Part shown: in pieces, positions 27,501 to 57,027 of the stretch
Position numbering within the stretch: position 1 is the first letter of the stretch
How the letters are laid out: every line of letters begins with the position of its first letter
Assembly (NCBI GenBank): GCA_008632985.1
Contig: QPGO01000020.1
Span: 124,001-188,000, forward strand
DNA length: 64,000 nucleotides
Direction of reading: 5' to 3'
Source of the DNA: Psammoneis japonica
Taxonomy: Eukaryota
Notes under the pieces: generated by a model
Seen by the model: the letters and a program-made list of their open reading frames with translations, nothing else
Told to the model about the DNA's origin: nothing
The model's database searches: none
Position numbers and translations under genes: made by a program

Positions 27501-27527
27501 CAACCCATGTTCAAGCCATCCTCACAG

Positions 27528-33749: not shown

Positions 33750-36270
33750 GTGGCTGGTTAACGACAAGCCCATAACCAGATCTCTTTATCTGACTTCGAG
33801 CCAAAGTAAGCTAAATGGTTAGTGTAAATCGTTAAGTGCCATTTCCACTTCGACACAAAGAAAGCTAAATGGTTAGTGTAAATCGTTAAGTGTCATTTCC
33901 ACTTCGACACAAAGAGAGCTAAATGCTTGACGGTAGTGGTCAGATTTCAAATTCTGAGCAATACAGAAATGTCAATGATGAATTAGGATTTTCGATCGCT
34001 TCTGCCGTAAATATCATTACGCCAATGCCACTAATGAATCCACAAATGAATTTGTATTCCATCCTTTTCCTGAACTTTGATCTGTCGGCATTTTCGATAC
34101 GAGTACGCGATGACAACAATAAAGCATGCTTGTATGTGTCATGGCCATAAGCTGTGAGGCGTACCGTCACATTTGGATTGAACTCGGGGATCTTGATGTC
34201 GAAAATAGCCATTTGTTTGACATTCGTGATTTTTCATCGCCCACAAATTGGGATTTCAACTGAGTCGAGTTGATGTTGGACGTGTTTCAAAGCACTGCAT
34301 TTGATGAAACAATTGAGGGCTCTGGAATTATGGCATTAATGCCATGGAGACTTAAAACAGTAAATGGGTTGACAATCAAGCAGTGATCGTGCTTGCCAAC
34401 ATTTCCAAACATGTGACAACAAAAATTGCATCACTCAACAACAACAACCAACAACCCCTCAAGAGAGAAACAAGAAAAGTGATTCCTCTTTGCACTTGAA
34501 TTAAAAGAGACAAGAATGCACAACAAACATTTGAGAAGGACAAGAAGCTCTTGAGTGCATGAAACAAGAAGAGAGTCAATGAATCGCTCTTGTTTCGAAC
34601 CTCTTGCCCTGTTCTGTTCATCATGGTGGCAGTTGGTTGAAAGGTTGGTTGTGGTTTTTTATGCGACTTGCAGCTTGAGGCATGTTGGTGCATGGACACA
34701 TGGCCCATGTGTGGTGTGTCACCTTTGGAATGTGCCACTTGTGGGGGTTGAGTGGACAGCTCTCTGTGCTCAAGCTTTGTCGGCCAAATGCTCCGTCAAA
34801 ATCCAGATGCTGCCCCATCTCACCCGACCATCAACAAAAAAGTTCTTGCAAAATGCTGTTGCCTGTTTCCCTCTTCCTCTGCAGAGCAGCTCTCTCAGTG
34901 ACAGCACTGCCCACATGCCAGACTGTGCTCAAGAATGCTTTCCAACCTGCCAGCCAAGACACCCAACTCGGGGCTGTGTGGGCTCGAATCTCTCTCAAGA
35001 CAAGCTGACATTTCTGCCTGGCACTGGTGGCAATGCTGAGCCCTCCTTCCTGTTTGACTTCCCAGGTGGTGTGTCCAGACCTTCTGTGTGCTAGCTCAAC
35101 CACAAGAGTCACTGTTTTTGCTGGCTTTGTTGGCAGGATGTGCCAAGGCTGCTCTGGCCATGTGTGCCTGGCTGGCACCACAATGCAAGGACAGTTGCAA
35201 CAGCACTTTCTGCTGTCAGCAAAGAGTGTGAGCTGGCTGGACTGCCCAACCCCACACTTCACAGCTCATCAGCAGTTGCTTCAAATCAAGTGCCAACTTG
35301 GGGTCAACTGCACCTGACTGGCTGCAATGCAAAGACAGCCATGGCAGCACTTTGTGACAACAAAGAGAGTGTGAGCTGGCTCCAAACCCCACACTTCACA
35401 GCCCCTCAGCACTGGCTCCCAATCAAATGCAAACTTGGGGCCAATGGCCATGAAGCCATCATTGCATCCGCTGCTGTGCCTGGCCCCTCACACACAGCTT
35501 TGCACAGGGTCAACATGTGTGGCCTTTGCAAGATGGGCCCCTGGCTGACTGCTGACTTCTCAGCCACGGCTTGCAACAAGCTGCTCCAATGCAGACCATT
35601 GTGAAGTGAACGAAGATCACTCAGAGTTGGCTGCTGTCCTGGGGCTTCATTCAAAGCTGAGCTGGGCTGCTTGGCTCCTTGGTGTGCGGCACATGCTTGG
35701 CATCACATTGTTGCCAAGCAGCCACATGGCATGTGCCCACCATTTGTGCCTGCAACAGCACCCCCCAGCCACAAAGAAGCCAACAAAAACTTGAACCTGC
35801 TTTTTTAGTTGAAGAAAGAAGAAACTGCCAGCGAAATTGGGTTCAAGATTTGCTGGCAATGCCATGTGGGCAACCAAAGAGAGGTGCCAAAAGTGGCTGT
35901 TCTTGCTCATTTCTCAAGAGGAGCTGCACTCATGATGCAGGGTCTGAAGCAAGCACCAGTCAAGATGACAGTTTTTTCTCTCTGCCCCACTTGAAACAGA
36001 GCCTTTGAGTCAATGCGATGCTCCTTCAACAACTGACGCACACTGGGAGGAGCAGGAGCTGGAGCCAGGGCAGCTGGCCTGGCAGGGCTTGGCTGACAAC
36101 CAAGCTGGGCTGCTCAGCTTGGTGGCACACACTCAGTGTCACATTGTCATCCTCCTGCAGCTGCGGTGTGCCCCACTCTTGCTTTTTGCACCTGCAGCAA
36201 CCACCCTGGACCAAAAGAAGCCAGCGCAACTCTGGCCCTGGCTGCATGGTCAATTTGTGTGTGTGTTCAA
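33750..36270. repeat. Copy B of the duplicated segment (unmutated to ~34370, mutated beyond)
   Basis: See copy A. The unmutated part carries a short minus-strand ORF 33940-34212 with normal Tyr content. Confidence 0.75.
33808..33925 (+). repeat. Tandem repeat, 2.2 x 54 bp
   Basis: aagctaaatggttagtgtaaatcgttaagtg.catttccacttcgacacaaaga occurs at 33808 and 33862. Confidence 0.9.
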
Positions 36271-36985
36271 CTGCAATGTGCAGCTGCTGATGAGAGTCAA
36301 TGTGTCACGGCGATGTGTTGCAGCCTTTAAATGTCACAAAGGGCGTGACAACAATGACCTTTTGTCTGCATGCATGCTGCATTGTGAATTCACAGCGGAG
36401 TGGTTCATCGCAACCATCAGGCAGGAGGCCAGGGGTTCGAAACCCTGAGTGGGAGTTGTCTGCAGCAACGTTGATCACTGTCGAACGCGCAAAAACTCTG
36501 TGCAGTTCTGTGTGTTCCTTCGCACGCACCCACACTGTTCCGCCAAAACCATGCAGTGTCAGCGCACGTTGGCAAAGAGCCACATGGACGCGTGACACAT
36601 GGGGAGGAGTGCAACACACAGCTGCCAACAAGAGTTGATGCATCACGGCGACGTGTTGCAGCCTTTAAATGTCACAAAGGGCGTGACAATGACAACCTTT
36701 TGTCTGCATGCATGCTGCACAATGGTCAACTCCCCTCCTTTTTTCCCTTTTCCTTCAATCGGCCACGAACATGAAAAAATTGCCCCCTTTTCCTTCGTGC
36801 GGCGGCCGGCACACCCGACCTCACACGCACCGGGAACATGAAAAATTTGCTTGCATCGCACGCAGGCCGCAGAAGCCGCGCAGGAGATTGAAGATGATAA
36901 AAATGGCGATTGACAGCGCTTTCTCCTCCGCATTTCGCACATTTGCTGTTTGCACAATCGTTCTCTAGAGCGCACAGCCCATTCC

Positions 36986-38298
36986 ATGGCAACAATGACA
37001 AAGCATCGAGGCGGTGCGTTTGGCTTTCAAGTTCTGTTGAGGCTGCATGGGTCAGCACTGTTCAAGGCTGCAGGTCCTGCCTTGATCGTGATGGTGTTTT
37101 TCATCATCTTTTTCCATTTCTTCAACCTGCATGACAACGGAAACAGAGTGTTTGATCACCCGCATCCGATGGGAGCACTGATTGCCTCCTTTGCCTTTCT
37201 GCTGACATTCAAAACTTCCTTTTCTTGTCACCGCATGAGCAGGCATTGGGTGTGGTGCTTTTGTTGCGCAGACTTGAGAATGAACTCGGAATGCATTGAA
37301 AGTTGAAGGCACTTGCATCCATTTTCATCTTGCCGCTGTCCTCTGCATCTCTGATGTTGGGTGCATCATTGCTGCAGCATTGGGAAGCAGGTGAGCATGA
37401 GGCCGTCAATCGGAAACCCACGGCACAATCGCTCACAGTGCTGTGTCTCCTGCAGCGACTGTCGTTCATCAAATGCACTCCAAATGGTTGGATGTTGGTG
37501 TGGAACTTGCAGCATTTCATTTGCAGTCAGACAGACACATGCAGCCTCCATCCTTTGGGCAATTTCCACAGGCAACCTCTGTCAAACAGGAGCAGGAACG
37601 ATTGAATGAAATGACGCGACAAGATTTAGAAGACCACCTTGACGAAATTGAAAGCATGCAGGGGCATGATGTTCAATTGTCGCTGCGGCATCGTGTGAAG
37701 AAATCTTTCAGAGGAGTGCGATTCTCCTCACGACAAAGACAGCTGCAACAACAGAGACCTCCACAAGTCATCGTCGCAAAAGCATCTGACCGAAACGAAT
37801 CTCTCGAGTCCCTGTCAATGCGAGGGCCCAAAAACAAATGCTCCAATGCAGAGACCAACACAGAGTGTCAATGCACCGACAAGGAAACCGCGAAGGACTG
37901 TCGGCAATCCCATTCAAAGACAGCCACAACACATCAAGCGACGAATCCAGAATGTTGACGACGACACGAGTCACTCAACGGCTTTGCAACTTTCCACATG
38001 CAGATCAGTCATCCGGAGCATGGCTCCAACGGAGCGATTCGACCCTTCCTTGTTGCTCCAAGAAGCAGCTCATTTGATGTCGTTGCTGTCTGCTGTTGCT
38101 TTGACAACCCTTCGAAATGATTTGGAACAAGCAGAAAGCCCACTGTCCAAGTTTGAACCAGGCACGCCGTGGCCTCATGTTGATCCTGACGATCACGACG
38201 CTGACATTCGTGGGGGGTGGGAATCGACTCACCGCAGCCTGGTGGTCTTGCAGCATCCATTTGGTCACACACGCACAGCACGGGCGCGGACTTTGTAC
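36986..38298 (+). pseudogene. Bestrophin-like (RFP-TM chloride channel family) gene, 5' part, interrupted by copia and hypermutated
   Basis: GFQVLLRLHGSALFKA, HPHPMGALIASFAFLLTFKTSFSCHR, HWEA, HQMHSKWLDV, SLLLQEAAHLMSLLSAVALTTLRND. The frame continues across the element once one TSD copy is removed. Confidence 0.8.
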
Positions 38299-38521
38299 CG
38301 AGTGAAATCCGATGCATCAGAGTCTGTCTGGTGCACTCTACAAGTTGAAGTGGCGGGACTGTGACGTGGTGTCGGTGGAAAAGTGACCATGACCATCGAT
38401 TGGTCTCACTTGTTGCATCCGTTGTAGTTGCAACAGGCCTAGAAGCATCTCATCGGTTGTGTTTGCGTTGTCGCACTAAGACTGTGAGTGGCTGAGCCCA
38501 CTCGGCAGCTAGATTTACTCG
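38299..38521 (+). repeat. 5' LTR (CGAGT...ACTCG)
   Basis: Same length as, and alignable without gaps to, 44600-44822. Confidence 0.95.
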
Positions 38522-38811
38522 CTTCATCAGAGCCAAGTCGTTGGCTCAAGTTTAGTTTGACGAAAAGCGTTGAACAACTGCAGAGAGACGGTCGTGCCAT
38601 TGTGGCAGGGTTGTGGCGACGAATGCCGGTCGATCGAAGGGTGCATGATGATCATCATCACCTGGCATCAGTGAATGCACGAGCAGTGAGGAGACATGGC
38701 CAGTCTCCATGCTTCTAATGGCTGTGTGTTATCGTCAACACAAACTGAGACATCCTTTTGAATTTATGATTTCTCACATGACTCTGTTTTCCCACTGGTG
38801 TGGGTGCCACC

Positions 38812-40239
38812 ATGGCGGCTGCTCCTCCGGATCCTGTCGAGACAGCGCTCGAATGGATCGGATTTGTTGATCCAGCTCAACGAGTCCCGCTCATGGCGGA
38901 CTTTGCGTCTTTTGACGATTTAGAAGACCTCAAGGAAGAGGACATCGATTCTCTTGCGTCTTCGTGCGCCAGGAGGACGGTTGCTGAAGGGCGCATTCAT
39001 TTTGGTTTGGCCCGCAGTCGTCGACTCAAAGCTCTCATACATTGGGTTCAGGACTTTGGTCGCGTGAGCGAGAATCCTACTCTGGATGGGCTTGATCAAG
39101 CCACTTTCCGTGCTGCTCTCCAGACGGCACTTAGTCGCGCCGAGATCCGCTCCCAGACCAAGGCTGCTGCTGACTCTCTTAGTAAAGAGGCGTCGCCCGG
39201 AATGTTAGAGAGCGAAAAGGATTGGGTCAAGTGGAGCACCGGTTTGACGAACATGCTTGGCATTGTGCTGGGAGTTTCTGGCGCACCGTTGGTGCATTGC
39301 ATTCGTCAAAACGATGCACCCGAACCTCAAGGCCACAACACTTTCGTCCAGAAGTGCATTGCATGTGCACCCCTCCAAGGCCCAGTTTTCGAGGCTGACG
39401 CTCGTACGGTTCATCTGCTCATCGAGTCCCCAACCACGGGCACACCTAGTGAGCAATGGTTGAAGGACCACAAGAATGAACAGAACGGACGAGTTGACTT
39501 TAGGGCGTTGTGCGACCATTGCCAGGGAGAAGGCAATGCCTCCCGCCGCATCTCTGAAGCCGAGCACATGGAGAATGCCCTTCATTGCAAGAGTGAACGC
39601 GCTGTGCCGTTTGAGTCATTTGCAAATGAGCTCCAAGAAATGTTCAACATTTTTGACGAGAACGACGAACCAAAAACGGAGGCCCAGAAGTTGCGGATCC
39701 TTTTTGAGAAGACGCAGCACCAATCACTACAAGCAGCAGTTGAAACCTTGAAGGCGCAGAATGAGTTTGGAGGAGGCATCACGTTCACCACGGCGGCCAA
39801 TCATCTTGCCGCCAAAGTCGCCACCCTTCCAGAGACGATTGCGCATCGTCGTGCGATTGCCGCAGTTGCCTCTGGAGGAGGAAGAGAGGGTGGTGCCATT
39901 TACAATGAGGATGGATCCATCAACACTGGATGCCACAAAAACTGGCACCAGTTGAGCAAGGAGGACAAACAGAAGGTCATCGACGAGCGCATGCGTCCAG
40001 GTGTCGCCAAACAACCTAAACCAACCAAACGCCGTGCTGCATCCGTCAAGTCGCTCAAGAAGAAGAATCGGAAGCTGTCGTCGCAGCTTAAAGAAGCGAA
40101 CCGCAAAATCTCCGCCCTGAACACTGATGTCAGTGCCGACTCTGGCGATGATGAATCAGGGGCTGGCGGCAGAGACGGAGACAATGCCGGAGACGCATTC
40201 GGTGGTCGCAGCGAAAAGCGCCGAGGAAAGCAGAAATGA
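38812..40239 (+). CDS. gag: Copia Gag (hypermutated but open)
   Basis: Diatom copia Gag motifs (RRLKALIHWVQDF, G.SGAPLVHCIR, GPVFEADARTVH, NGRVDFRALCDHCQGEG) and a basic C-terminus. Confidence 0.85.
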   Translation: MAAAPPDPVETALEWIGFVDPAQRVPLMADFASFDDLEDLKEEDIDSLASSCARRTVAEGRIHFGLARSRRLKALIHWVQDFGRVSENPTLDGLDQATFRAALQTALSRAEIRSQTKAAADSLSKEASPGMLESEKDWVKWSTGLTNMLGIVLGVSGAPLVHCIRQNDAPEPQGHNTFVQKCIACAPLQGPVFEADARTVHLLIESPTTGTPSEQWLKDHKNEQNGRVDFRALCDHCQGEGNASRRISEAEHMENALHCKSERAVPFESFANELQEMFNIFDENDEPKTEAQKLRILFEKTQHQSLQAAVETLKAQNEFGGGITFTTAANHLAAKVATLPETIAHRRAIAAVASGGGREGGAIYNEDGSINTGCHKNWHQLSKEDKQKVIDERMRPGVAKQPKPTKRRAASVKSLKKKNRKLSSQLKEANRKISALNTDVSADSGDDESGAGGRDGDNAGDAFGGRSEKRRGKQK

Positions 40240-43200
40240 CTGCCAAGCTGGACCCTGCTTGGTTGCATCATAAACTTCTTGTTGTGGTTGCTGCAATGGG
40301 GCGGGGGACAGCCGCATCGATCAAAGGAGCAGTGTCCACGTGCCTGTGTCAAATGCATCTGTGAGGTTGTCACCTCGACGAGACGTGTGTCGGCAACGCG
40401 GTCTGACACCACACGAATCACCCACATCCGTGATGTGAGCAAGGCACAGCATGGGCGTCTTGAAATGGATTCGCATGCTGACACCACTGTTTTTGGTCAA
40501 AACTTTACCCTCTCAGGTTGTTCTGGACGAGAATGTGACGTGTCGCCTTTTAATGAGGGACACGAGTCCATCAAGAGTGTCCCAATTGTCTCGGCAGCCA
40601 CGGCGTGGACTTCACCGACATCGGGAGCAACTTTTGTTCTGGTCTTCCACGAGGGCTCATGGATGCCGGAGTCCATGGAGCACTCACTGGTTAACCCAAA
40701 CCAGCTGCGGCACTTTGGTGTTAAGGTTCAGGACAACCCCTGCTCCGATTCGCCACTGCACATCCTCACTGAGGACAGATCTTTCATGATGCCGCTTGAA
40801 GCTGTGGGGACCAATGTCGTTGTGGCAACTCGTGCTCCTGCAGAGCAGGAATTGCACGAATGCCCCAAGATCCAGATGACCTCCCAACAACCTTGGGATC
40901 CACAGACCGTCAAGTTCAAATCTGTTGGAACTCGACGATCTGCGGAGGAGGAAATGGAGCTAGTTCGGTCAATTGCGACGATCCACACCAATCTAACACA
41001 CGAGTTCAAAGCTGATCCTGCCTGCAGCAACCCCCAATCCGGGGACTGTTGCGATGAGCGATTCATTTGTGGAGTCGATCAAGTCCAATCAAGGCTCATG
41101 GCTGCCGTCAATGTGGAAATGGAGCCAACAGTCCAGATCTCCGCCACGGAAACAATCGGCGAAGGACCTGAAGACTTGGCACTCCCGAAGACGTTCATGT
41201 CTGAGGAGAGGCACAGTGACGCATCGGCTGCTGACTCAAGTGAACAATGGTGCATGGGACTCAAGCAAGCAGCAAGTGCGCTCAAGAAGACTGCACAAAA
41301 GCTCATCAGGTCAGCGTTGATGCCTGTGGGCCGGCGCTGTCGGGCCGATCGGATGTTCACAAAGCCCAGGTTACGGGGTGAATGGGCAACCGACACGGCA
41401 GACGGCAAGGTGGTTTCGCTGGAGGGCAATCGACATGCCCAGATCTTTACAAACAAGCAACACTTTGCTGCGATCTGTCCCATGGACAAGAAGAGCAAGG
41501 CTGGCGAGGCTCTCAAGACGTTTTGCCAGGAATTTGGCGTGCCAGAGAAACTCCTGATGGACGGATCTAAGGAGCAAACAAAACCTGGCATGGAGTTCAT
41601 GAAGACCGTGCGCAAGGAGGGCACAGATTGTCACATCATCGAACCTGATCGACACAACCAGAATCCTGCAGAAGGAGTTGCACGCGAGGTTGGACGTAAG
41701 TGGTTCCGTGTCATGGTCAAGAAGCAAGTGCCGCGGCGACTGTGGGGCTGCGGATTTACATGGACATGTGAGACCATGTCTCGCACGTTCCTTCGAGCAC
41801 ATCATTTGGATGCAGGAGCACCACTGGAGAACGTTCTCGGAGAGACCGTGGACATCTCGGAGCACCTCGACTTTGGATTTTACGATTGGGTCTGGTGCAG
41901 GGAGAATGCCGGTCTGGGGGACGAGAAGCTTGGTAGGTGGCTTGCTGTGTCTCACAGAACAGGGAGTCTCATGTCGCATTACGTTCTGACACAGACAGGC
42001 AGTGTTATTTCGAGAACTTCCGTCCAACGAGTCACCAATTTGGAAGCCGCCACTCAAGAGAAAAAGGCAGAGTTCGACAGTTTTGACGAGGAGATCAAGC
42101 GACGGTTGAAGGAGCAAGATTTCCCCGATGACGAGGATCGTAAGATCAGTCCCGAAGACTGGAAAGACTGCCTTGGATACGACGATGAATTCCTCGATGA
42201 GCATGATCGTGTCATGTCCTCAGAGGAGGTGGCAAATGACGACGACGACAAGAAAGACGAGGAAGCCTCACCGGAGGCGGCGGACTGGGGATGCATTAAC
42301 ATGGAGGTTGCGCTTCCACGAGATGACAATGGTCCTGAGTTTGCTCGTGTCACGAAGAGGTTGAGAGATGCTCAGATCGACGAGGACGGAAACCAGCACG
42401 TCTCATTCGATGAGATCGTTGATTGCCGCACCAACGGGGACGTTCCTGAATCCGAATTCTTTGAGACCGAACGAGGCGTTCGGAAGAGGCGCAAGACTGC
42501 CAAAGGATGGGAACTTTTGTTCCAATGGAAGGATGGAAGTGCGACTTGGATCGACTTGAAGATTGCGAAGGAGAGCTTCCCAGTCCAAGTTGCCGAGTTC
42601 GCCATTCAGCGCAAGATCTCGGGTGAGGCAGCGTTTGCTTGGTGGGTTCCTCATGTCATGAAAACCCACAAGCGTTCCATTGCGAAGGTCAAGTCGAAGT
42701 GCTGGCTACGAACACACAAATTTGGCATGCGGATCCCGAAGAGTGTCAAGGAGGTGATCCAGATCGATTGCGCAAATGGCAACACACTGTGGTGGGACGC
42801 CATTTGCACGGAGATGAAGAACGCACGGGTTGCTTTTGACAAGCATGAAGGGGAGCTTAAAGACATGGCGCCTGGTTTCCAGGAAGTGAAGTGCCACATG
42901 ATTTTTGACATCAAGTTGGGAGAAAACTTCTGCCGCAAAGCTCGCATGGTGGCTGGAGGCCACACCACTGAAACCCCCGCACACATCACTTGCTCCTCTG
43001 TCGTCTCTCGGGATTTGGCAAGAATTGCACTGACGCTTGCTGCGCTCAATGACTTGCAAGTCTTTGCATGTGACACCCAGAACGCCTGCCTCACTGCCCC
43101 TTGCAGGGAGAAGATTTGGACCAGAGCAGGGTCTGAGTTTGGCAAAGATGAAGGTTGCATCATGATTGTGGTCAGGGCCCCACACGGATTGAAGAGCTCC

Positions 43201-44439
43201 GGAGCAGCGTTCAGGGCTTTTCCAGCGGAGACGCTTTATGATCTAGGGTGCAAACCGAGCAAGGCTGATCCGGATGTGTGGATGAGACCTGCGGTGAAAC
43301 CCGACGGATTCGAGTGCTGCGAGTGCGTTCTAGTTTACGTGGACGACGTGCTGTCGATTGGCCACAAACCCATGAAGACGATGGATGGCATCAGGTCCAA
43401 GTTCAAGCTCAAGGGTGATGAGGCAGCCGAACCGGATTCCTGCCTCGGTGCTGCGCTCTCCAAGATGACTTTAGCCGATGGGACCACCTGTTGGGCAATG
43501 TCTGCGGAGAAGTGCTGCAAGTCCGCTGTCCAAAATGTAGAGGACAGGCTTGGCAAGGAGGGGAAACGTCTGCCTGGCAAGGCGACAACCCCATTGAGCA
43601 GTGGATGCAAACCCGAGTTAGATGCTGCTGGCGAGTTGGACGCTGAAGGACTTCACTGTTGTCAAGAGCTGATTGGTGTGCTGGTTTGGGCGGCAGAACT
43701 CGGCAGAGTGGACATCCATTTGGAGGTTTCGTCAATGTCTGCTCACCTCGCTCTCCCTCGCATTGGCCATCTGGAACAGGCACTGCATGTCTTTGCATGC
43801 CTTAAACAGGTTCCAAAGCGTCAAGTGGCATTCGATCCGGCTCATCCCAAGATCGATGAATCACGATTCGTGAAGTGCGACTGGCACGACTTCTGCCGAG
43901 ATGCAAGAGAAGCCATTCCAACAAATGCACCGCCAGCTCGAGGTAATGCAGTGTCGACACATTGTTTTGTGGATGCCAACCATGCCGGAAATGTTGCCGA
44001 TCGCCGCAGCCATACAGGCATCTTGATGTTCATTGACCGGGCACCCATTGTGTGGCACTCGAAGCGTCAGAATGCCGTGGAGGCTGGCACATTTGGAGCA
44101 GAGATCGTTGCACTCAAGAATGCCATCGAGCTCGCAGAGAGTCTACGACACAAGCTTCGAATGTTTGGAGTGCCGATCGAAGGGCCAACAAATGTCTTCT
44201 GTGATGATGAGGCCGTCCACAAGAATTGCTCTGTTCCTGAGTCTACACTCAAGAAGAAGCATCACTCCATTGCGCGTCACCGTAACCGCGAAGCTGTTGC
44301 TGCGGGGACTGTTAGGATTGCAAAGGAGGGAACAGAGACAAACCTTGGCAATCTATTCACGAAGGTCATGTCGTCTGTCAGGCGAAATTTTCTGTTAGAC
44401 AAGTTCGCGCATCAGGATGGATGCGTGAAGCGGTGGTGA
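40240..44439 (+). CDS. pol: Copia Pol (protease, integrase, RT, RNase H), open but Tyr-depleted
   Basis: EMDSHADT (PR), HNQNPAE (IN), KARMVAGGH, GLKSSG, YVDD (RT), FVDANHAG...DRRS (RH). Only 5 Tyr counted in the 1386-aa ORF. Confidence 0.95.
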   Translation: MPSWTLLGCIINFLLWLLQWGGGQPHRSKEQCPRACVKCICEVVTSTRRVSATRSDTTRITHIRDVSKAQHGRLEMDSHADTTVFGQNFTLSGCSGRECDVSPFNEGHESIKSVPIVSAATAWTSPTSGATFVLVFHEGSWMPESMEHSLVNPNQLRHFGVKVQDNPCSDSPLHILTEDRSFMMPLEAVGTNVVVATRAPAEQELHECPKIQMTSQQPWDPQTVKFKSVGTRRSAEEEMELVRSIATIHTNLTHEFKADPACSNPQSGDCCDERFICGVDQVQSRLMAAVNVEMEPTVQISATETIGEGPEDLALPKTFMSEERHSDASAADSSEQWCMGLKQAASALKKTAQKLIRSALMPVGRRCRADRMFTKPRLRGEWATDTADGKVVSLEGNRHAQIFTNKQHFAAICPMDKKSKAGEALKTFCQEFGVPEKLLMDGSKEQTKPGMEFMKTVRKEGTDCHIIEPDRHNQNPAEGVAREVGRKWFRVMVKKQVPRRLWGCGFTWTCETMSRTFLRAHHLDAGAPLENVLGETVDISEHLDFGFYDWVWCRENAGLGDEKLGRWLAVSHRTGSLMSHYVLTQTGSVISRTSVQRVTNLEAATQEKKAEFDSFDEEIKRRLKEQDFPDDEDRKISPEDWKDCLGYDDEFLDEHDRVMSSEEVANDDDDKKDEEASPEAADWGCINMEVALPRDDNGPEFARVTKRLRDAQIDEDGNQHVSFDEIVDCRTNGDVPESEFFETERGVRKRRKTAKGWELLFQWKDGSATWIDLKIAKESFPVQVAEFAIQRKISGEAAFAWWVPHVMKTHKRSIAKVKSKCWLRTHKFGMRIPKSVKEVIQIDCANGNTLWWDAICTEMKNARVAFDKHEGELKDMAPGFQEVKCHMIFDIKLGENFCRKARMVAGGHTTETPAHITCSSVVSRDLARIALTLAALNDLQVFACDTQNACLTAPCREKIWTRAGSEFGKDEGCIMIVVRAPHGLKSSGAAFRAFPAETLYDLGCKPSKADPDVWMRPAVKPDGFECCECVLVYVDDVLSIGHKPMKTMDGIRSKFKLKGDEAAEPDSCLGAALSKMTLADGTTCWAMSAEKCCKSAVQNVEDRLGKEGKRLPGKATTPLSSGCKPELDAAGELDAEGLHCCQELIGVLVWAAELGRVDIHLEVSSMSAHLALPRIGHLEQALHVFACLKQVPKRQVAFDPAHPKIDESRFVKCDWHDFCRDAREAIPTNAPPARGNAVSTHCFVDANHAGNVADRRSHTGILMFIDRAPIVWHSKRQNAVEAGTFGAEIVALKNAIELAESLRHKLRMFGVPIEGPTNVFCDDEAVHKNCSVPESTLKKKHHSIARHRNREAVAAGTVRIAKEGTETNLGNLFTKVMSSVRRNFLLDKFAHQDGCVKRW

Positions 44440-44599
44440 GTTTCTTCCCTGGTGAGGGTTTACACCATGCACAAAGGATTGGCGGCTTTTCCCTGGCAAG
44501 GGTTTTACGTCGATTAATGAGTCAAGATGTTTGAGCTAGATCACTGATGCAGCATTGGGTCGAATTGTGCCTTACGAGTCAGGTACATTTCGAGGGGAC

Positions 44600-44822
44600 C
44601 GAGTGAAATCCGATGTATCAGAGTCTGTCTAGTGCGCTCTATAAGTTGAAGTGGCGGGACTGTGACGTGGTGTCGGTGGAAAAGTGACCATGACCATCGA
44701 TTGGTCTCACTTGTTGCATCCGTTGTAGTTGTAACAGGCCTAGAAGCATCTTATCGGTTGTATTCGCGTTATCGTACTAAGACTGTGAGTGGCTGAGCCT
44801 ATTCGGCAGCTAGATTTACTCG
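44600..44822 (+). repeat. 3' LTR, retains most TpA
   Basis: Matches the 5' LTR and is preceded by a polypurine tract. Confidence 0.95.
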
Positions 44823-45858
44823 GTACAATGCCGCTCGGCCTTTTCGAGTAGTGGGGGGAGGTATGTTGTTGTTTCGAGCGCGGAAACAATGAGTCCGAGC
44901 TTTCACGTGTTGTTTTGTGTATCCTCCACTTATTTTCTATTTTAGTCTCCGATGTTGAAATTGAGCAGCTTCAAATGGCTCGGGGGCCTTTGGCGAAGGT
45001 GGCACTTTGTACCATGTAGTTACAAGAATTCATTGCTCGAGAGCATTTGCATAAAGGGTTGGGCAGCGTCGGTGCTCCGATTGTCAGTCGAATGTTTCAA
45101 TGCACAAGTGATGGAATGATTGGGTGAGTATGATAAGGTGTACAATTTTGCTAGGTTGGACATCAACATGTTGTCAGGTCTGACTCTTCATTGATTCTAC
45201 GCTTTCTCCAACTCTTTCACAAACGCTTCCCCAAACGCTTTCCGAAACTCCAACAGGTGCAATCAAGCCCGCAAGATTGCCTGCATTCCTTTTCCGTTCC
45301 CACACGCACAAATTACGTCTCTTTACATCATTATGATGGTGGTCTTTGTGCCAATGCTGATGCTCTCATACATCAACAACATTGTCTTTGGCGCGTTCCT
45401 CAACTTTCTTTACAGTCCTTGCTTTCACTGGTCTTTACGAAGTTTCCCGTGAACTGGAGAATCCGTTTAAGAACGTGCCAAATGACATTCCTCTAAATAA
45501 CTTTCAGGCCCAATTCAATGAAGCCCTGATGACCATGTACAACGGATACCATCCAGACTCTTTTTGGGTTGTTCAAGAAGTGAGTGGCCCACTTCCATCT
45601 ATGATCTTCGAGGATCCTGAGCAAGAAGAAAGGTTAGAGGCGGAGGAAAAGGAAGAATCGATACACAGAGAGGAGGGAAAGCTTCCGGTTTTGCGTGCCG
45701 ACGATCGTCACGAACCCCCCCTATCGTCAGTGGACGACAGCTTGTTGACTCATGATTCTTCCGGGGAAACGTATCGTGGCGCTCCATTGGTTGCTGGAAC
45801 TTTAGAGGCCGAAGTTTCAGCGAGCGAAGGCAACAACGATGAAATCAAAATGAGCTGA
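44823..45858 (+). pseudogene. Bestrophin-like gene, 3' part
   Basis: YNAARPFRVVGG, ARGPLAKVALCTM*LQEF (premature TAG), NQARKIACIPFPFPHAQ, GLYEVSRELENPF.NVPNDIPL. Introns at ~44861-44945 and ~45124-45257. Confidence 0.85.
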
Positions 45859-46295
45859 TCGTATTAATTGACTTTCCCTAAGGATGTTCGACAACATTAC
45901 GTAGAAGTAGATACAAGTTTTTCACGCAAGAGCTGTGCGGCAATAGTGTGTGACATTAATTATCAACATTTTGGGCACTTTAACTTTCAAAAATTGCTAT
46001 GGAGATGGCAGTTTCCCTCAGGGTATTATTACTAACGTACCAGGAAATAACCACCTAGAGGTAATTGGCAGACAAGTATATGCGGGTGGGCGAAACGTAG
46101 CAGGCTTGAGTTTCGCAATGGAATAGCGGCAATGTTGACTTGTAACTAGACGAGACGAAAATTAATGGCTCACGAATCTGACAGTACAAACGATGAAACA
46201 GCCCTACAGGACCTTCCTCTCTCTAGAGTACGGCGTTACCGGTAGTGGTCTACAAATTTAAGATTTGAGCGGGCCCTGCAGGTGCAAGAGGCATT

Positions 46296-46763
46296 CTAGA
46301 ACTCTGCTTGTCCGTCTTGCGTCACTTTGAGAAGCTCTAAGGTGAAGACGAGAACAGCACCACCTGGGATCTGCCCCCCAGCGCCACGGTCGCCGTAACC
46401 TAACTCAGAAGGGATGTAAAGCTCCCATTTTCCACCCTCTTTCATGAGCTGCAATGCCTCCTTCCAACCGTTAATAACTTGGTTCGGAGCAAAAGTGAGC
46501 GGCTCCCCGCGTTTGTATGAGCTGTCAAATTCAGTACCATCGATCAAAGTTCCTGCATAATGGCACAAGCACGGCGTGTTAATCTTCGGCGACGGACCGG
46601 TTCCAGCACGAAGTTCCTTGTAGAGAAGGCCCGACGGAAGCTCCACAACCCCGTCCTCCTGCTTCTTAGCTGCTAGAAACTTCAGTCCCTCAGGATTCGT
46701 CCCAGCATGGACCAAGCCAAAAAGGGCAACAGTAACGAACATAAGCAAAGAGCGAATCATCAT
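46296..46763 (-). CDS. FKBP-type peptidyl-prolyl isomerase (Mip/FkpA-like) with signal peptide
   Basis: LPSGLLYK, HYAGTLIDGTEFDSSYKRG, VINGWKEALQLM, YIPSELGYG, VLVFTLELL. Ends QAEF, a possible ER-retention variant. Confidence 0.95.
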   Translation of the reverse strand: MMIRSLLMFVTVALFGLVHAGTNPEGLKFLAAKKQEDGVVELPSGLLYKELRAGTGPSPKINTPCLCHYAGTLIDGTEFDSSYKRGEPLTFAPNQVINGWKEALQLMKEGGKWELYIPSELGYGDRGAGGQIPGGAVLVFTLELLKVTQDGQAEF

Positions 46764-47022
46764 ACAGACAGAAGAGAGGATTAAGCGAGACGTATGAATG
46801 AGAGATGGAGAGATACGTACAGTATCTATTAGCTCTAGCTAGAGAGTAGTCTCTTCGAAGCAGACAGCAGACAGCCGAAGATTGAAGACTGAAGACCGAT
46901 CGATCTCGTCTCTCGTCGTCGAGCAAAGAATTCATCATCGATCGCGTCGCGTGAGGCAGGAAGATATCCGAGCTCGAAGCTCGATCTCTGGAGATCTGAC
47001 GTGCGTGCGTTTCATTCGGGAT

Positions 47023-47360
47023 TGTTTTGGCCTGAAGGCTATGAGATAACGGTTGTTCCCAAAGTGAATGTTATGGGGCAATTGGTGCTCCATAAGTGAA
47101 GGGGTCCTTTATCATCAAAAACGATTCTGATTGGCTGGTTGTCTGCCGGTCATAATGAAAAAGTCACACTAAACTCACGATGTGTCCCACGTGTGCGTGG
47201 TTGGTTCGGTTCTCGGAAAGCATCCATAAGACTGTTTGGTGATGTCTTTGACATTCTGAGGGCACTGGTGTAATGCCGGGAAATCCACTCGAGGATCTTC
47301 TCACAATCTTGATTGGGTTGCTGTTTACCACTGATTTATCTTATCGAGACACTTTTAGCA
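47023..47360 (+). repeat. 5' LTR of second copia, retains many TpA
   Basis: Alignable to 55093-55413. Confidence 0.9.
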
Positions 47361-50300
47361 CGTTGTCAGAGCCACACTCTAACTGTCTGAGACCATGGCA
47401 TTTGCTGCAGCACAAACCACCTCTTTCTTCGAGGACGATGACCAGGTGGGTTTGCCCAACGCAGCTCGTGTGCAGCTGGTGGCGGAAGGACTGGACCAAG
47501 TGAGCGACCTCACTGACTTTGATGAGGATGGTCTGAACCAGATCTTTGAGAACCTCAAGCGTCCTGGAGGCACCGTTCCACACCCCAATCCTGGTGCAGC
47601 TGCTGGAGCGGTCATTCGGACACCAGCCTTTGTCGCAGGTGCGAAGAGCATGGCGCGCCTCAAGGTTGCAAAACAGGCAGCGCAGTGCCACAAAACTGTT
47701 GGTCGTGAATTGTTGGCAGCTAACATGCACTGAAATTTTGTCATCAAGAACTTCCAGGAAGCGTGGAAGGCTTTGAAAGAAAGGAAGAGCGAAGATGATC
47801 CTGAAGCACCAAGGACCACCAAGTCGCTTCCGACTGTGAAGTGGACCGAGGCCTTTCGTGATCACCTGCAGCATGTGATCGGGACTCGGGCTGTCCCACT
47901 GTCATGCGTCACCCAAGAAACGGTTGCAGCTCCTGCGGCGGCTCCTGCACTGGCCATGAACCAACCTCACTTGGACGAACACAGTTCTCTTGAAGATGAG
48001 CCAGTGGCATGAGCCAGTCACACTCACCCTTTGTTTTGAGAGGACAACTCTGCAGTGTGTTGTTCTCTAGAAGAAGCCACCCGCAGAACCTTCTGTGTGG
48101 CTTCAATCAAGCCCTTTCAATGCAGGAAGGATGGAAGGGGTGCATGGACTGCACCAATGACACAACATGCTGGCGAGGATAAATGGGCAGCTGAGCTCAA
48201 GAAGCAGGAGGACTTCATCCACAATTGGAAGTGGAAAGCCCAATCAAATTTCTCCCTTGACCACTTTGTCTCTCAGCACCACAATGTCTTTGTCTCCATG
48301 CAGCAATGTGCTGAGTGTGTCACCTTCCAGCTCCCGAACGAGCACACAAGAGTCGCGCACCTGTTGGATGCCATCAAGACCGCTGATGCTCCACTGCAGG
48401 CCGCAATGGCTCTGGTCCACAACGACACAGGACCAAATGGAAAATGCAGTGACTTCAAGGCAGCGGCAGCACACATCTTGTGCCCCATGACCCTGTGGCC
48501 AAGAAACGAGCTGCCAAATGGCCTCACGCTGAAGTTTCTGGAATTGACTCCAGTGCCATTAAGTCTGGCATTGGCAAATCCGGGGTGGAGCTGCGCCATC
48601 ACACTCATTGTGAGTGTCAGCAATTGAACTCTGACCAGAAGGCCAAACTGAAAGAATGGCGCTCCTTGGAGGGCTCTTCTGCCATGAAGAAAAAGGAGGG
48701 CAAGCACAAGACACAACCAGCTGGTTCGCAGAAGAAGATCAAGAAGATGATCTTGGAAGCTGTGGCATCTGAGCTAGCTTCTCGCGAGAAGAAAGATGAA
48801 AAAGCCAACACCAGGTCTAACAATGCCAAGGTGCGCACTTGCCTCCTTTCCCTTGTTCAGGCGGCATGAAACTCGGCTCCGGCTGCCGTGTCGCTGCCTC
48901 CTCTGCCACCACCGATGGTGACACCGGCCCCGGCACAAGCCTCGGCGGTTCAGTTCAAGCCACCCTGGGTGATGTTGCAGTCGATCCTGCGGCGTGCCAG
49001 CAACAAGAAATGAAACGTCGGGACGGTGCTGCACTCCAATGTCTCCTTGCTTGAGGGGAGAAAATGTGCCATCTGTGCCATGGAATCACAGTCGCTGATT
49101 CCCAATCATTCTGTTCTAAAATTTGTTGCTCGCTGTGCAATCTCTGACATCACTGCAGAGACAAGTGAAGAGACTTGCAATGAGAGTGAAACGCGCACTG
49201 AACTGGATTCTCATGCGAACATGGTTGTGGTTGGCAAGGGGTCCCATGTGTTGAACGACACTGGTTGCACAGCTCAAGTGTCAGTCCTTTCAGTCCAGAG
49301 TGCGAGTCGATGAAAGATGTGAGAATGGTCAATGCTCTCTTGGCATGTGACTGCCCGCACTCCCTGAAAACTTGCTTGCTTGTTGGTCCTGCACAATGCC
49401 CTGTACATTCCGACAATGGACCACAATCTGTTGCCACCCTTTGTGCTGCATGAAGCAGGGGTGATTGTCAATGATGTTCCCAAGATGCAAGTCCAAGGAC
49501 GGGAACAAATGGAGGACAATCATGCCCTTCTGTTCCCGGATTTGAAGGTTACAATCCCACTGTCCCTGTGGGGTGCATTCTTGCACTTTCCATCTGGACG
49601 ACCCACAATGGAAGAGATGCAAGACACTGATGACGTGCTGGTCCTAACTCCATCTGGGCACTTGTGGAATCCTCACTTGGATTCCTGTGCTCGGAATGAG
49701 GAAAGCATGTTGGACTGGGAAGGGAACATGTCGGACAAATGTGGTCAGATCAGGATTCTGGTTGAAGACCTGCCTGACAAAGACGAGGAATTACAATTGT
49801 CCTCAATGATGTCGAGTGTTGAGTCTGGGATTGTTGACTCCAAGTTGTCAGTTGTTGATTGCTTTGAGGCTCATGATGACCTGAGTGGATGCACAGGAGT
49901 CATGCGGGAGGCTGACAACTCCCATGCCGTCATGTGTGACATCTTGGCCACTCTTGATTGCATCTCACTTGCCGAAGGTCCACAGGACCGCCGCGACATC
50001 GGCGTTTTTGCATCCTCTGTAGGATCCACGATGGCGGGACTTCAAGATGACTCAGATCGGGGTGACAATGTTGATTTTGATGTTTTTGAGGATGTCCAAC
50101 TTGAAGACATTGCAGACAATCTTGTGGAGCATTTTGAATCTGATCCCAAGGTCCAAGTTGGAGGAACTGCTGCCTCCAAGTCTAAGGGTGTGTCTCCAGA
50201 ACACTTGTCCAAGGTCTGGAGAACAAGCACCAAGGATGCAGAGCAGACTGTGGACAACACCTTTCAACTTCTTCAACGCACCCAAGACCCAGCTTTCTTG

Positions 50301-51513
50301 AGGAACTGTTCAACAAACAACAGGATGCTGTGGTGTTGATGAACTGCCCAGCATTTCTTCATGGACACTTTCTTTGCAAGTGAGAAGGCTGGGAAGTCCA
50401 TGCGAGGACACTCATGCATGCAGTTGTTTGTCACTGACAAGGGCTTTGTTTGTGTGGTGCCCATGCATGCTCAATCAGAGACACCTCAGGCACTCAAGAT
50501 GTTTGCCAAGGAAGTGGGTGCACTGGAGGCGATCACATGTGACAGTGACCCAGCACAGAAGTCTGATGAGATTCAACAATTTCTTCACTCCATTGAGACC
50601 AGCCTTGGGCTGCTGGAGGAAGGAACACCATGGTCAAACCATGCTGAACTGCACATTGGCTTGTTCAAGGAGGTGGCACGCAAGGACATGAAAGAGTCCT
50701 TGTGCCCTTTGCCTTTTTGGGACTGCTGCTTTGAGCGACAGGCAAGAATTGACAACTTGATGGCCCAGAACCTGTTCCAACTTGAGGGGAGGAACCTGCA
50801 CTTCTCTGTGACAGGGGACAAAGGTGACATCTCCAACCTTGCTCAATTTGGATGGCATGACTGGTGCTTCTTCCGTGAGCACACCAACCCCTTCCCATTT
50901 GATCGCGAAGTTCTCGGGCATGTGCTGGGCCCCACCAAAGGAGAAGGAAACAACATGGCTCAGTGGGTGCTGAAGGGCAATGGCAATGTTGCACCACGAC
51001 GTTCCCCCTCTCAGTTGCTGAGATGAACAGTGACACTGAGAAATGCAAGCTTGAGATTTTTGACCAGTGCATTGAATCAAGCTGGGGCTCTGCAGCTTGT
51101 CCTGTGTCCTCTGCAGGCAAGCAGTTCATTCCGCATGGGGATGCACACGAAAAGCCCAGAGATCTCCTGAATTTGATGACCCAGTTGACGCTGCTGGGAA
51201 TGCCATTGACCCAACCCCCTTGCATGACCAGCTCATCCATGCTGAGATTGCTCTGCCTCAGGGTGACAAGTTGAGGCAGGCCCGTGCAATTGGCCGATCT
51301 GTGGATCCAGATGGTTGATCGGTCGGCACGTGCAATGACAACCCAATCATGAACACTTTGGTTTACAACGTCGGGTTTCCTGATGGGAGGTGAAGGAACA
51401 TGCCGCCAACGTCATTGCTGAGAACTTGCTTTCTCAAGTTGACTCAGAGGGCTGCACTCTCAACCTTTTTGACAGCATGCTTGATTTTGCCAAAGATGAT
51501 GCAGCAGTGACCA

Positions 51514-54308
51514 AGGACAACATGTGCACCAAGGTTGGCAAGCAGAAACGGTTGTGCAAGACGATGTGCAGCTGGAAATTGCCAGTTCTGTGGAAGGATG
51601 GGACCAAGTCCTGGGTCTCCCTGAAGGACATGAAGGAATTGCACCCAGTGGAGACTGCGGAAATTGCCAAAGCCAGAGGTGTTGATGATAAAACAACTTT
51701 TCGACAGCAGATGCCGCACACCCTTCACAAGCGAGATGTCATTGTATCTGCAGTCAAGGCACGTGTGCAACGTGTGACGCACAAATGTGGGGTCAAGCTT
51801 CCCAAGACAGTGGAAGAGGCACTTGAACTTGACCATCAGAATGGCAACAAACTTTGGGCACAAGCAATCAAGAAGGAGATGCGCGATGCGGGTGTCACAT
51901 TTGAGATCTTGGATGATGACACTCCGACTCCTGTTGGTTGGTCCAAACAGTCAGGTCACCTGACATTTGATGTTAAGATGACCATGGCCAGGAAGGCCAG
52001 ATGGGTCCTCGATGGACACAAGACTTCAAGTCCCGAGGGTCAACGTGCGCTGGCGTTGTCTCCAGGGAGAAAGTGTGTGCATTGCCCTGATGTGTGCTGC
52101 CTTGAACGACATTGACGTGATGGCAGCAGACATTCAGAATGTGCACCTTCAGGCTCCTTCATCCCAAAAGCACTGCATTGCATGTGGCCCAGAGTTTGGT
52201 CTCAAGAATGTTGGCAAGCAAGCCCTCATTCATCAGGCTCTGCATGGTGGCAAGTCGGCGGGACGAGATTTCCAGAATCATCTGCGTGCGTGCATGTCCC
52301 ATCTTGGTTTCAAGCCTTGCAAGGCTGACCCTGATGTGTGGATGCATGAAGCACTCAAGTCGAATGGCACGGAGCACTGGGAACATGTTCTCCTCTACAC
52401 CGACGATGTTCTGTGCATCTCCAACAATGCTGAGGAGATTCTACGAGGGGAGATTGGCAAGCACTTTCCATTGAAGGAGTCATCAATCGGACCTCCAAGT
52501 CTGTACCTTGGAGGACACCTGTGAAAAGTGGAACTTGAGAATGGGGCCAAAGCGTGGGCATTCAGTTCCTCCCAGTGCATTCAAGCATCGGTTAAGAATG
52601 TCGAGACTTTCCCGGAGTCAAAGGGTTTGAAGTTGCCTGCCAAGGCTCCAACCCCACTTGGCAGCTCGCATCATCCTGAACTTGACACAAGCAAGGAATT
52701 GACTCCGACCCATGCTGCGCACTGTCAATTGCTCATTGGCATCCTGCGTTGGATGGTCAAGCTGGGGCATGTTGACATTTGTCTTGAGGTGTCTGTGATG
52801 TTGTTGCACTTGGCTGTGCCACAAGAAGGACACCTTGATCAGGTGTGCCACATCTTTGCGTGTCTCAAGAGGCACCATGACACCGAGATGGCATTTGACC
52901 CCACCTGTCCAGGACAACATGTGTGCCAAAATTGGCAAGCAGAAATGTTTGTGCAAGATGATGTGTGGCTGGAAATTCCTTGTTCTGCGGAAGGATGGGA
53001 CCAAGTCCTGGGTTTCCCTGAAGGACATGAAGAAATCACACCCAGTGGAGACTGTGGAATTTGCCAAAGCCAGAGGCATTGACGATGAACTGGCTTCTTG
53101 ATGGTGGGTGCCATGCACCCTTGGCAAGCAAGATGTCATCGTGTTTGCGGTCAAGGCACGTGTGCAACGTGTGATGCACAAGCATGGGGTCAAGCTTCCT
53201 GAGACAGTGTCAGAGGCACTTGAACTTGACCGCCAGAATGGCAACAAACTTTGGGCACCAGCAATCAAGAAGGAGATGCGTGATGCAGGTGTTGCATTCA
53301 AGATCTTGAATGATGACACTCCGACTCCCAATGGTTGGTCCAAACAGTCAGATCACCTGACATTTGATGTTAAGATGACCATGGCTAGGAAGGCTGGATG
53401 AGTCCTAGATGAACACAAGACTTCAAGTCCCAAGGGGTCAATGCATGCTGGCATCATCTCCAGGGAAAGTGTGCGCATTGCCCTGACGCACACTGCATTG
53501 AATGACATTGATGCAATGGCAGCGGACATTCAGAATGTGCACCTTCAAGCTCCATTGTCTCAGAAGCACTTCATCACATGCGGCCCAGAGTTTGGCCTCA
53601 AGAATGTTGGCAAGCAAGCCCTCATTTGTTGGGCTCTGCATGGTGGCAAGTCGGCGGGACTGGATTTCCAGAATCATCTGTGTGTGTGCATGTCCCACCT
53701 GGGATTCAAGCCTTGCAAGGCAGACCCTGATGTGTGGATGCGTGAAGCACTCAAGTCGGAAAGCACGGAGCACTGGGAGCATGTCCTCCTCCACACGGAC
53801 AATGTTCTGTGCATCTCCAACAATGCCAAGGAGATTCTGCAAGGGGAGATTGACACAAGTGCTTCCTGTTGAAGGAGTCATCGATTGGACCTCCAAGTCT
53901 GCACCTTGGAGGACACCTGCAAAAGGTGGAACTCAAGAATGGGGCTAAGGCATGGGCACTAAGTTCCTCCCAGCATGCTCAAGCATCAGTTGAGAATGTT
54001 GAGACATTCTTGAAGCACAAGGGTTTGAAGTTGCCTGCCAAGGCTCCAACCCCACTTGGCAGCTCGCATCATCCTGAACTTGACACAAGCAAGGAATTGA
54101 CTCCAACCAATGCTGCACACTGTCAATCACTCATTGGCATCCTGCGTTGGATGGTCGAGCTGGGGCATGTTGACATTTGTCTTGAGGTGTCTGTGATGTT
54201 GTTGCACTTGGCTGTGCCACAAGAAGGACACCTCGATCAGGTGTGCCACATCTTTGCGTGTCTCAAGAGGCATCATGACACTGAGATGGCGTTTGACCCC
54301 ACCTGTCC
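51514..54308 (+). repeat. Direct duplication of ~1397 bp of pol (51514-52910 and 52911-54308)
   Basis: aggacaacatgtg recurs at 51514 and 52911; both copies end gaccccacctgtcc. Confidence 0.92.
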
Positions 54309-55092: not shown

Positions 55093-55413
55093 TGTTTTGA
55101 CATGAAGGTTGTGAGATGACCATTGTTCCCCAAGTGAACATCATGGGACAATTGGTGTTCCACAAGTGAAGGGGTGCTTTGTCAGCTAAAACGATTCTGA
55201 TTGGCTGGTTGGTCTGCCGGTCACAATGAAAATGTCACACTCAGCTCACGATGTGTCCCGCGTGTGGTTGGTTTGGTTCTTGGAAAGCAAGACTGTTTGG
55301 TGATGTCTTTGACATTCTGAGGGCATTGGCATGATGCTGAGAAATCCACCCAAGGATCTTCTCACAATCTTGATTGGGTCACTGTTTGTCACTGATTTGT
55401 CTCATCAAGACAC
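55093..55413 (+). repeat. 3' LTR of second copia, TpA-depleted
   Basis: Follows the PPT; similarity to the 5' LTR ends a few bases before that LTR's terminal CA. Confidence 0.88.
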
Positions 55414-57020: not shown

Positions 57021-57027
57021 TCGGGTA

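What the first reader, a model, noticed from the sequence alone, without database searches (positions are those of the whole stretch)
36986..45400. Hypermutation spreads out of the transposon into the host bestrophin gene and fades as a gradient
The interrupted gene has Tyr->His/Cys at expected positions 5' of the element (HPHP, FSCHR, HWEA) and a probable lost splice donor (cgc|atgagc). Hits continue ~450 bp past the 3' LTR (CNQARKIACIPFP for the expected YNQARK.AY.PFP), but the last part is normal (GLYEV, TMYNGYHP). Host sequence is therefore mutated by proximity, which is a collateral cost of the system.
Basis: partly seen in the sequence, partly recalled or inferred. Interest (0 to 1): 0.75.

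Follow-up and report, generated by a model that had tools for sequence, protein, structure and literature searches.

The report
TA-erasing mutation wrecks diatom host genes
In this probable diatom, a process that rewrites TA steps to TG or CA has destroyed the front half of a chloride-channel gene split by a retrotransposon, but it acts in sharply bounded chromosome zones rather than fading outward from that transposon, and it also ruined host genes on the matching chromosome copy, which lacks the transposon.

Summary
The lesions are real; the gradient is not. Against an intact paralogue (C137), 51 of 52 scorable TpA sites in the gene's 5' half read TG/CA. All 8 tyrosines there became His/Cys, and homologues keep Tyr at 7 of those 8 columns.

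The conversion is flat and more complete than inside the Copia (154 of 204). The matching haplotype C260 has no Copia and is hit as hard, mostly independently, as is its FKBP allele (35 of 42). On the 3' side the 3' LTR has 0 hits against 9 in the 5' LTR. The first 350 host bases have no window-specific hit. The lost splice donor is a CpG change.

Across ten family copies, the LTR that escapes is always the one beside TpA-normal host DNA (7 of 7). Best reading: position-defined TpA hypermutation domains that fill host DNA trapped between repeats and stop near intact genes, here a 2.9-kb spared island around FKBP.

The signature is published for Bigelowiella (preprint). The scan noted it before on other DNA of this genome.

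The parts
33750..36784 (.). High-copy 2.6-kb repeat, copied in a TpA- and CpG-erased state except its left 0.6 kb. Its right end (36720-36784) is pushed off by a 448-nt insert with 110-nt direct repeats. It ends about 210 nt upstream of the bestrophin ATG.
   Evidence: (29 long matches besides itself among 30 candidates scored of 475)
36995..38298 (+). Bestrophin_2 gene, 5' half: exon 1 36995-37234, exon 2 37378-37390, exon 3 from 37456. TpA conversion is saturated (51 of 52), all 8 Tyr are lost, the intron-1 donor is lost by CpG>CpA at 37235, and a 5-nt deletion lies near 37833.
38295..38298 (+). 4-nt target-site duplication GTAC, repeated at 44825-44828; single in both element-free copies' alignment positions
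38299..38521 (+). 5' LTR (223 nt, ends CGAG...CTCG). Since insertion 9 of 15 TpA were converted, with 2 CpG changes and 1 other change.
38522..44601 (+). Copia-type interior: gag-like ORF 38809-40236 and pol ORF 40243-44433 (RVT_2, E 3e-7, 30.6 bits, just under the 31.6 cut-off). 154 of 204 informative TpA are converted in 38522-44300. The last window-specific conversion is at 44450.
44602..44824 (+). 3' LTR: no conversion since insertion, 15 TpA kept
44829..45858 (+). Bestrophin_2 gene, 3' half: end of exon 3 at 44860, exon 4 44946-45123, exon 5 45257-45858. No window-specific TpA hit in 44829-45170. Nonsense change at 45017 and one extra base near 45405.
45258..45486 (+). Isolated patch of 7 TpA conversions (7 of 16 sites): Y438C, Y446C, I470M and 4 synonymous. 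It cannot be dated because C260 lacks this stretch.
46299..46763 (-). Intact FKBP-type isomerase gene (PF00254, 96 bits). The only other copy found in the genome (C260) has 35 of 42 TpA converted over 45990-46817 and a 52-nt deletion.
44461..47380 (.). Spared island around FKBP that includes the facing ends of both neighbouring retroelements
47018..55413 (.). Second long element with terminal direct repeats, absent from C260. The end facing FKBP keeps TA at 10 sites where the far end is converted; there are 0 reverse cases.

Best explanation
The genome carries a mutator that turns TpA into TpG or CpA (A>G on either strand) inside bounded chromosome domains. Shown: domains are set by place, not by sequence. 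They cover repeats and also host DNA caught between repeats. They have sharp edges that can fall inside an element, and changes accumulate site by site on both strands. In the window the bestrophin 5' half was trapped between an upstream 2.6-kb repeat and the Copia and was saturated. The 3' half, the 3' LTR and the near end of the next retroelement lie in a 2.9-kb spared island around the intact FKBP gene. On the sister haplotype C260 no island survived, and bestrophin and FKBP were both converted without any Copia. Inferred, not shown: the domains are silenced (CG-methylated) chromatin nucleated at repeats. Transcribed genes hold the edges. The chemistry is adenine deamination (A>I) by a TadA/ADAT-type enzyme, or mis-repair of a modified adenine. 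The Copia's part is to cut the 5' half off from the protected island and trap it, not to radiate a gradient.
For: Flat saturation of the host 5' half, above the element's own level: 1 of 52 kept versus 7.8 expected at context-matched element rates. C260, with the empty site, has 46 of 62 converted in the 5' half, 13 of 14 in the stub 3' of the site and 35 of 42 at FKBP, against 4-9% in normal syntenic flanks. 17 of 46 doubly hit sites took opposite outcomes, with 29 the same versus 24.0 expected if independent, so most hits arose separately on each haplotype. In 20 LTRs from ten copies, the 13 beside TpA-erased flanks are 62-88% converted and the 7 beside normal flanks 6-50%. There is no overlap (rho -0.70), and 5' and 3' LTRs occur in both groups. 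Both element ends facing FKBP are spared. TpA-containing open frames of 110 codons or more lie within about 1 kb of all 7 spared ends; C31's look low-complexity. TpA content is bimodal: 63 of 128 bins under 0.15, 9 intermediate, 56 normal. CpG loss is raised in the hit gene half (17 of 60 and 25 of 67, versus 4-9%). No strand coordination was found.
Against: The window's conversion edge coincides with the insertion site (last host conversion 38266), which fits a direct one-sided effect of the Copia equally well. The upstream 2.6-kb repeat does not by itself erase its right flank in 4 of 6 other copies checked. C228 shows conversion running about 1 kb out of a Copia 5' end into a host gene: 25 of 31 sites, reverse 1; beyond that 10 of 19, reverse 8. 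The patch at 45258-45486 lies inside the spared island and is unexplained. Open frames of 110 codons also lie 0.9-1.3 kb from three hit LTR ends, and no flank ORF was tested as a gene. No expression, methylation or chromatin data were seen. The deaminase search found only a few ordinary-looking members (9 matches of 11 candidates), none tied to the process. LTRs of one element are not independent points.
Confidence: 0.55

Rival explanations
1. One-sided spreading caused by the Copia. A transcript from the host side reads into the element, the chimeric unit is silenced and mutated from its start to the element's 3' UTR, and the DNA downstream is spared. C260 would be a separate event with its own triggers.
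For: The edge sits at the insertion site. The 5' LTR was hit after insertion (9 versus 0). Hits are mostly later than the haplotype split. 8 of 10 copies have an erased 5' flank, against 5 of 10 for the 3' flank. C228 shows outward conversion.
Against: The host half is more converted than the element (P=6e-5). TpA loss runs on without a break upstream to 34.3 kb. C61 and C62 show the mirror pattern (5' LTR spared, 3' hit). The same gene is saturated without the Copia in C260. A repeat sits about 210 nt upstream of the ATG, so the promoter may not be intact.
Confidence: 0.27
2. One reading: the mutator is recruited to the Copia and leaks out on both sides, fading with distance.
For: Conversions exist on both sides of the element, two of them at near-invariant Tyr 430-460 nt past the 3' LTR; the far end is clean.
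Against: No decline across 1.35 kb on the 5' side. About 800 nt from 44461 to 45250 shows no conversion assignable to the window after insertion: 19 element sites are kept, 7 conversions are shared with C28 and C208, and 6 host differences are shared with C260. The 3' LTR is untouched, and the Copia-free haplotype is hit.
Confidence: 0.08
3. Homology-triggered, RIP-like targeting of the duplicated bestrophin gene itself.
For: Three copies of the gene exist and two are wrecked.
Against: C137 is intact (633 aa, no stop). The window's 3' half is equally duplicated yet mostly spared. FKBP is hit on one haplotype only. Near-identical LTRs are hit on one side only.
Confidence: 0.05
4. Ordinary pseudogene decay or a sequencing artefact.
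For: The copy also carries a nonsense change, frameshifts and CpG changes. About 20% of TpA differ between the paralogues for ordinary reasons (7 of 33 in the reverse direction), which can explain part of the 3' differences.
Against: In the 5' half, 51 of 117 A/T positions in TpA changed, versus 47 of 565 outside TpA. Short-read contigs carry the same letters.
Confidence: 0.02

Closest known systems
TpA-restricted hypermutation of integrated NCLDV and virophage DNA in Bigelowiella natans (Mettrop et al., bioRxiv 10.64898/2026.01.13.699255; parts 1-3 of 5 read: abstract, introduction, results, discussion)
   Same: T/A>C/G changes at TpA on both strands, confined to regions, leaving TpA-poor and CpA+TpG-rich clusters. 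A deaminase is proposed there but not shown.
   Different: Here the host is a probable diatom. The targets are retrotransposons, old repeats and trapped host genes, conversion reaches saturation, it differs between haplotypes, and edges fall inside elements next to intact genes. In the parts read, the paper reports no such edges or allele comparisons.
RIP and RIP leakage in ascomycetes (leakage into single-copy DNA: PMC9453070, passages seen; mechanism recalled)
   Same: Repeat-associated hypermutation that reaches neighbouring single-copy genes.
   Different: Opposite chemistry: RIP makes C>T and creates TpA, whereas this process removes TpA. Here sequence duplication does not predict the target; position does.
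DNMT5-dependent CG methylation of transposons in Phaeodactylum tricornutum (PMC9998398, abstract and outline seen)
   Same: Would explain the CpG loss that accompanies and follows TpA loss in older domains.
   Different: Methylation alone gives CpG>TpG/CpA, not A>G at TpA. Methylation was not measured here.
CoDi Ty1/copia elements of diatoms (PMC2806351, passages seen)
   Same: Size, LTR length, hemizygous insertion with an empty allele. A 4-nt duplication and families without TG/CA ends are described there.
   Different: The CoDi group was not determined. Mutational inactivation at TpA is not in the passages seen.

Membership tests
Bigelowiella-type TpA hypermutation | A>G / T>C changes restricted to TpA | tested here: met
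   51 of 117 versus 47 of 565 positions; 9 of 12 LTR differences
Bigelowiella-type TpA hypermutation | Both strands hit | tested here: met
   96 TG and 79 CA in the window's element; mixed in the host half
Bigelowiella-type TpA hypermutation | Regional confinement with a far higher rate than background | tested here: met
   Bimodal TpA bins. 9 of 15 TpA versus 1 non-TpA, non-CpG change between the LTRs: roughly 100-fold or more, a relative estimate only.
Bigelowiella-type TpA hypermutation | Targets integrated viral DNA | tested here: not met
   Targets here are retroelements, repeats and host genes. The preprint itself extends the signature to transposon-like CDS.
Bigelowiella-type TpA hypermutation | Measured de novo rate and line-to-line variation; same enzyme | not testable with these tools
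   Needs mutation-accumulation lines and knock-outs
RIP | C>T at CpA, creating TpA | tested here: not met
   TpA is erased
RIP | Triggered by sequence duplication, both copies hit | tested here: not met
   One LTR of a pair is spared in 7 of 10 copies; the paralogue is intact
RIP | Leakage into flanking single-copy DNA | tested here: met
   FKBP in C260, 35 of 42; works like RIP leakage only in this respect
RIP | RID/DIM-2 dependence, premeiotic timing | not tested
   Recalled features; not searched
Ty1/copia (CoDi) | LTR pair, target-site duplication, RVT_2 reverse transcriptase | tested here: met
   223-nt LTRs; exact 4-nt duplication in 8 of 10 copies; RVT_2 at E 3e-7 but 1 bit under the cut-off
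Ty1/copia (CoDi) | Integrase before RT; placement in a CoDi clade | not tested
   Order judged from recalled motifs; no tree built
Bestrophin_2 (PF25539) | Profile score above the curated cut-off; orthologues | tested here: met
   all 120 listed homologues carry PF25539. Scored on the intact paralogue.

The most novel reading that the evidence does not exclude
Diatoms have a chromatin-guided adenine mutator, an 'inverse RIP'. It works allele by allele, and its domain edges are held by transcribed genes. When transposons trap a gene or break its protection, the whole allele is erased at TpA (every Tyr codon). This would be a transposon-triggered route to hemizygosity and paralogue loss in an asexual diploid.
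Probability: 0.4. Interest if true: 0.87.

Novelty: new variant of a known kind. Interest (0 to 1): 0.63.

Why it matters
A>G hypermutation of genomic DNA at TpA has, in the searches made here, one published description, in an unrelated alga and on viral inserts. This locus shows it destroying ordinary host genes independently on two haplotypes. It also gives a built-in ruler: LTR pairs show that the target is defined by chromosome position and that intact genes shield the DNA beside them. That makes the boundary rule and the enzyme testable in a diatom, and it means TpA-erased alleles can mislead annotation and divergence estimates.

Tried and rejected
Gradient by distance: tested by thirds on the 5' side and in three bins on the 3' side; rejected.

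Strand-coordinated bursts were suggested by the 3' patch (three TG, then four CA). No excess of same-strand neighbours was found at any distance in four or ten element copies, nor in the host half (P=0.20 and 0.33).

An early shared episode before the haplotype split: 6 of 6 shared states in 44829-45170 (P about 0.02) fit it, but five are synonymous or intronic, the reverse count is 4, and 29 of 46 concordance in the 5' half fits ordinary paralogue divergence plus independent hits. Left open.

Empty alleles for the C28 and C24 insertions: none found. For C224 there was no allele, only repeats and a 77% partial match. Copy C66 was dropped because its 5' LTR is rearranged. Ten loci of the 63 matches were fetched besides the window; C63, C99, C120 and the distant subfamily were not analysed.

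Deaminase search: no expansion, no candidate singled out. Sequencing runs: no RNA holder listed.

Literature: searches found no report of this process in diatoms; most subscription journals are not in the library. Supplements of the Bigelowiella preprint could not be seen and may bear on edges or host genes.
Full report
SETTING. The window is G000:C21:124001-188000 of a 91-Mb, 597-contig assembly. Named homologues of the gene come from diatoms, so the host is probably a diatom. TpA content is bimodal: 63 of 128 bins of 500 nt are under 0.15 of expectation, 9 are intermediate and 56 normal. Older domains have also lost CpG.

ANATOMY. A five-exon Bestrophin_2 gene starts at 36995 and ends at 45858. 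It is split in exon 3 by a Copia-type element, 38299-44824, with 223-nt LTRs and a GTAC duplication. The genome holds two element-free copies (3 matches of 3 candidates). C137 is an intact paralogue (633 aa, no stop). C260 is the matching haplotype: it is syntenic over 45990-46817 and 55473-64000, about 2% diverged in transversions, and has the empty site and an 820-nt deletion of the gene's end. Contigs of a short-read run show the three copies at similar depth (55-67) and confirm the window's letters. Upstream, a high-copy 2.6-kb repeat ends about 210 nt before the ATG. Downstream lie an intact FKBP gene (46299-46763, minus) and a second long element (47018-55413) that C260 lacks.

THE OBSERVATION. 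Of 63 TpA in C137 aligned to 36930-38298, the window has TG or CA at 51, keeps 2 (one is the target duplication) and has gaps or other letters at 10. All 8 Tyr are His or Cys. Two details differ. The donor loss at 37235 is CpG>CpA, and the ATG at 36986 was created by a TA>TG change.

NO GRADIENT. On the 5' side, conversion by thirds is 25 of 25, 16 of 17 and 10 of 10, and TpA loss continues upstream to 34.3 kb. The host half is more converted than the element: 1 of 52 kept versus 50 of 204 (P=6e-5), or versus 49 of 170 when possibly inherited states are removed. On the 3' side, the 5' LTR has 9 conversions of 15 TpA and the 3' LTR none. The last window-specific conversion in the element is at 44450. 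After it 19 sites are kept, and the 7 converted ones are identical in copies C28 and C208. In 44829-45170 the 6 differences from C137 are all identical in C260 (3.1 expected if independent), so none is specific to the Copia-bearing haplotype. The only two changes at conserved columns of exon 5 are TA>TG, so the process did touch this patch. Four of the seven are synonymous, the whole-3'-half asymmetry is 13 versus 7 (P=0.26), and the patch cannot be dated.

THE COPIA IS NOT NEEDED. C260 has 46 of 62 sites converted in the 5' half (1 kept, 15 other or gap). It has 13 of 14 converted just 3' of the empty site, and 35 of 42 across the FKBP stretch, plus a 52-nt deletion. Normal syntenic flanks show 5 of 134, 11 of 136, 8 of 91 and 5 of 87. 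Only these two FKBP copies were found. At 46 doubly hit sites, 17 took opposite outcomes, so most hits arose separately on each haplotype. The C260 domain is about 7.7 kb. It runs from an old CpG-poor repeat block through FKBP, the bestrophin remnant and a low-copy sequence that is TpA-normal elsewhere, past a 390-nt high-copy insert.

EDGES DEPEND ON THE NEIGHBOUR. I compared ten family copies: the window plus nine of ten fetched, with C66 dropped. The 13 LTRs beside TpA-erased flanks are 62-88% converted and the 7 beside normal flanks 6-50%, without overlap (rho -0.70). Five spared ends are 3' LTRs and two are 5' LTRs, so protection is positional. In the window the near end of the second element is spared too (10 versus 0), which leaves an island, 44461-47380, around FKBP. 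TpA-containing open frames lie within about 1 kb of all 7 spared ends, but also about 1 kb from three hit ends, and none was tested as a gene. Results against my reading: C228 shows 25 of 31 conversions over 1 kb of a host gene next to its 5' LTR, then background. The window's host edge coincides with the insertion site. The upstream repeat has normal right flanks in 4 of 6 other copies.

MECHANISM. Shown: A>G at TpA on both strands, site by site without strand coordination, after insertion, by position, with raised CpG loss alongside. Inferred: repeats nucleate silent, CG-methylated chromatin. DNMT5-dependent transposon methylation is shown in Phaeodactylum (PMC9998398, abstract seen). Neighbouring domains merge across short host stretches, transcribed genes hold the edges, and an adenine deaminase or mis-repair of a modified adenine does the chemistry. 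The genome has few, ordinary-looking members of the deaminase family (9 matches), none tied to the process.

WHAT IS KNOWN. The same signature was measured in Bigelowiella natans on integrated viruses (bioRxiv 10.64898/2026.01.13.699255; parts 1-3 of 5 read, supplements not seen). RIP leakage into single-copy DNA is the functional parallel (PMC9453070, passages), with opposite chemistry and a homology trigger that is not met here. CoDi elements with 4-nt duplications or without TG/CA ends are described (PMC2806351, passages). Searches found no report for diatoms. Earlier notes of this scan describe the process, leaks into host genes and sharp edges on other DNA of this genome; I did not check them.

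VERDICT. A real and costly hit on host genes, misread as a gradient from one transposon. It is a new variant of a recently described kind. Interest 0.63.

Noticed in passing
window 33750-36784; L048-L053: A high-copy 2.6-kb repeat was amplified in an already TpA- and CpG-erased state; every copy checked keeps TpA only in its first ~0.6 kb, whatever the flank. C251 and C60 sit in wholly normal DNA.
   Followed up: partly
G000:C260:68534-69309 (L043): FKBP allele with 35 of 42 TpA converted and a 52-nt deletion; the window holds the only intact copy found.
   Followed up: yes
L007 about 6000-9600 (C137): The intact bestrophin paralogue sits in a small TpA-normal island with erased DNA on both sides.
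   Followed up: partly
window 38522-44300, ten copies: Context bias: purine-TA-pyrimidine steps survive at 0-6%; TTAA, CTAA, TTAG and TTAC survive at 34-57%.
   Followed up: partly
window 38299-44824 and relatives: The family has CGAG...CTCG ends instead of TG...CA and 4-nt duplications, six of the eight exact ones starting with G. The window copy lacks about 120 nt near 42370. Both ORFs stay open despite ~75% conversion, as the change cannot create stops.
   Followed up: partly
L041 3297-4300 (C228 5' flank): About 1 kb of TpA conversion in a low-copy host gene (538-codon frame in a relative) beside a Copia 5' LTR.
   Followed up: partly
window 4500-9700, 22700-33000, 47400-57000: Further TpA-erased domains with sharp edges. 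CpG loss is near total in the first two and partial in the third, which suggests different ages.
   Followed up: no
window 57007-57590 / 62540-63119; 62226-62522: Duplicated segment 5.5 kb apart, and three 99-nt repeats in TpA-normal DNA.
   Followed up: no
window 29150-30600; 51514-54155: Tandem arrays with 473-nt and 1397-nt periods inside erased domains.
   Followed up: no
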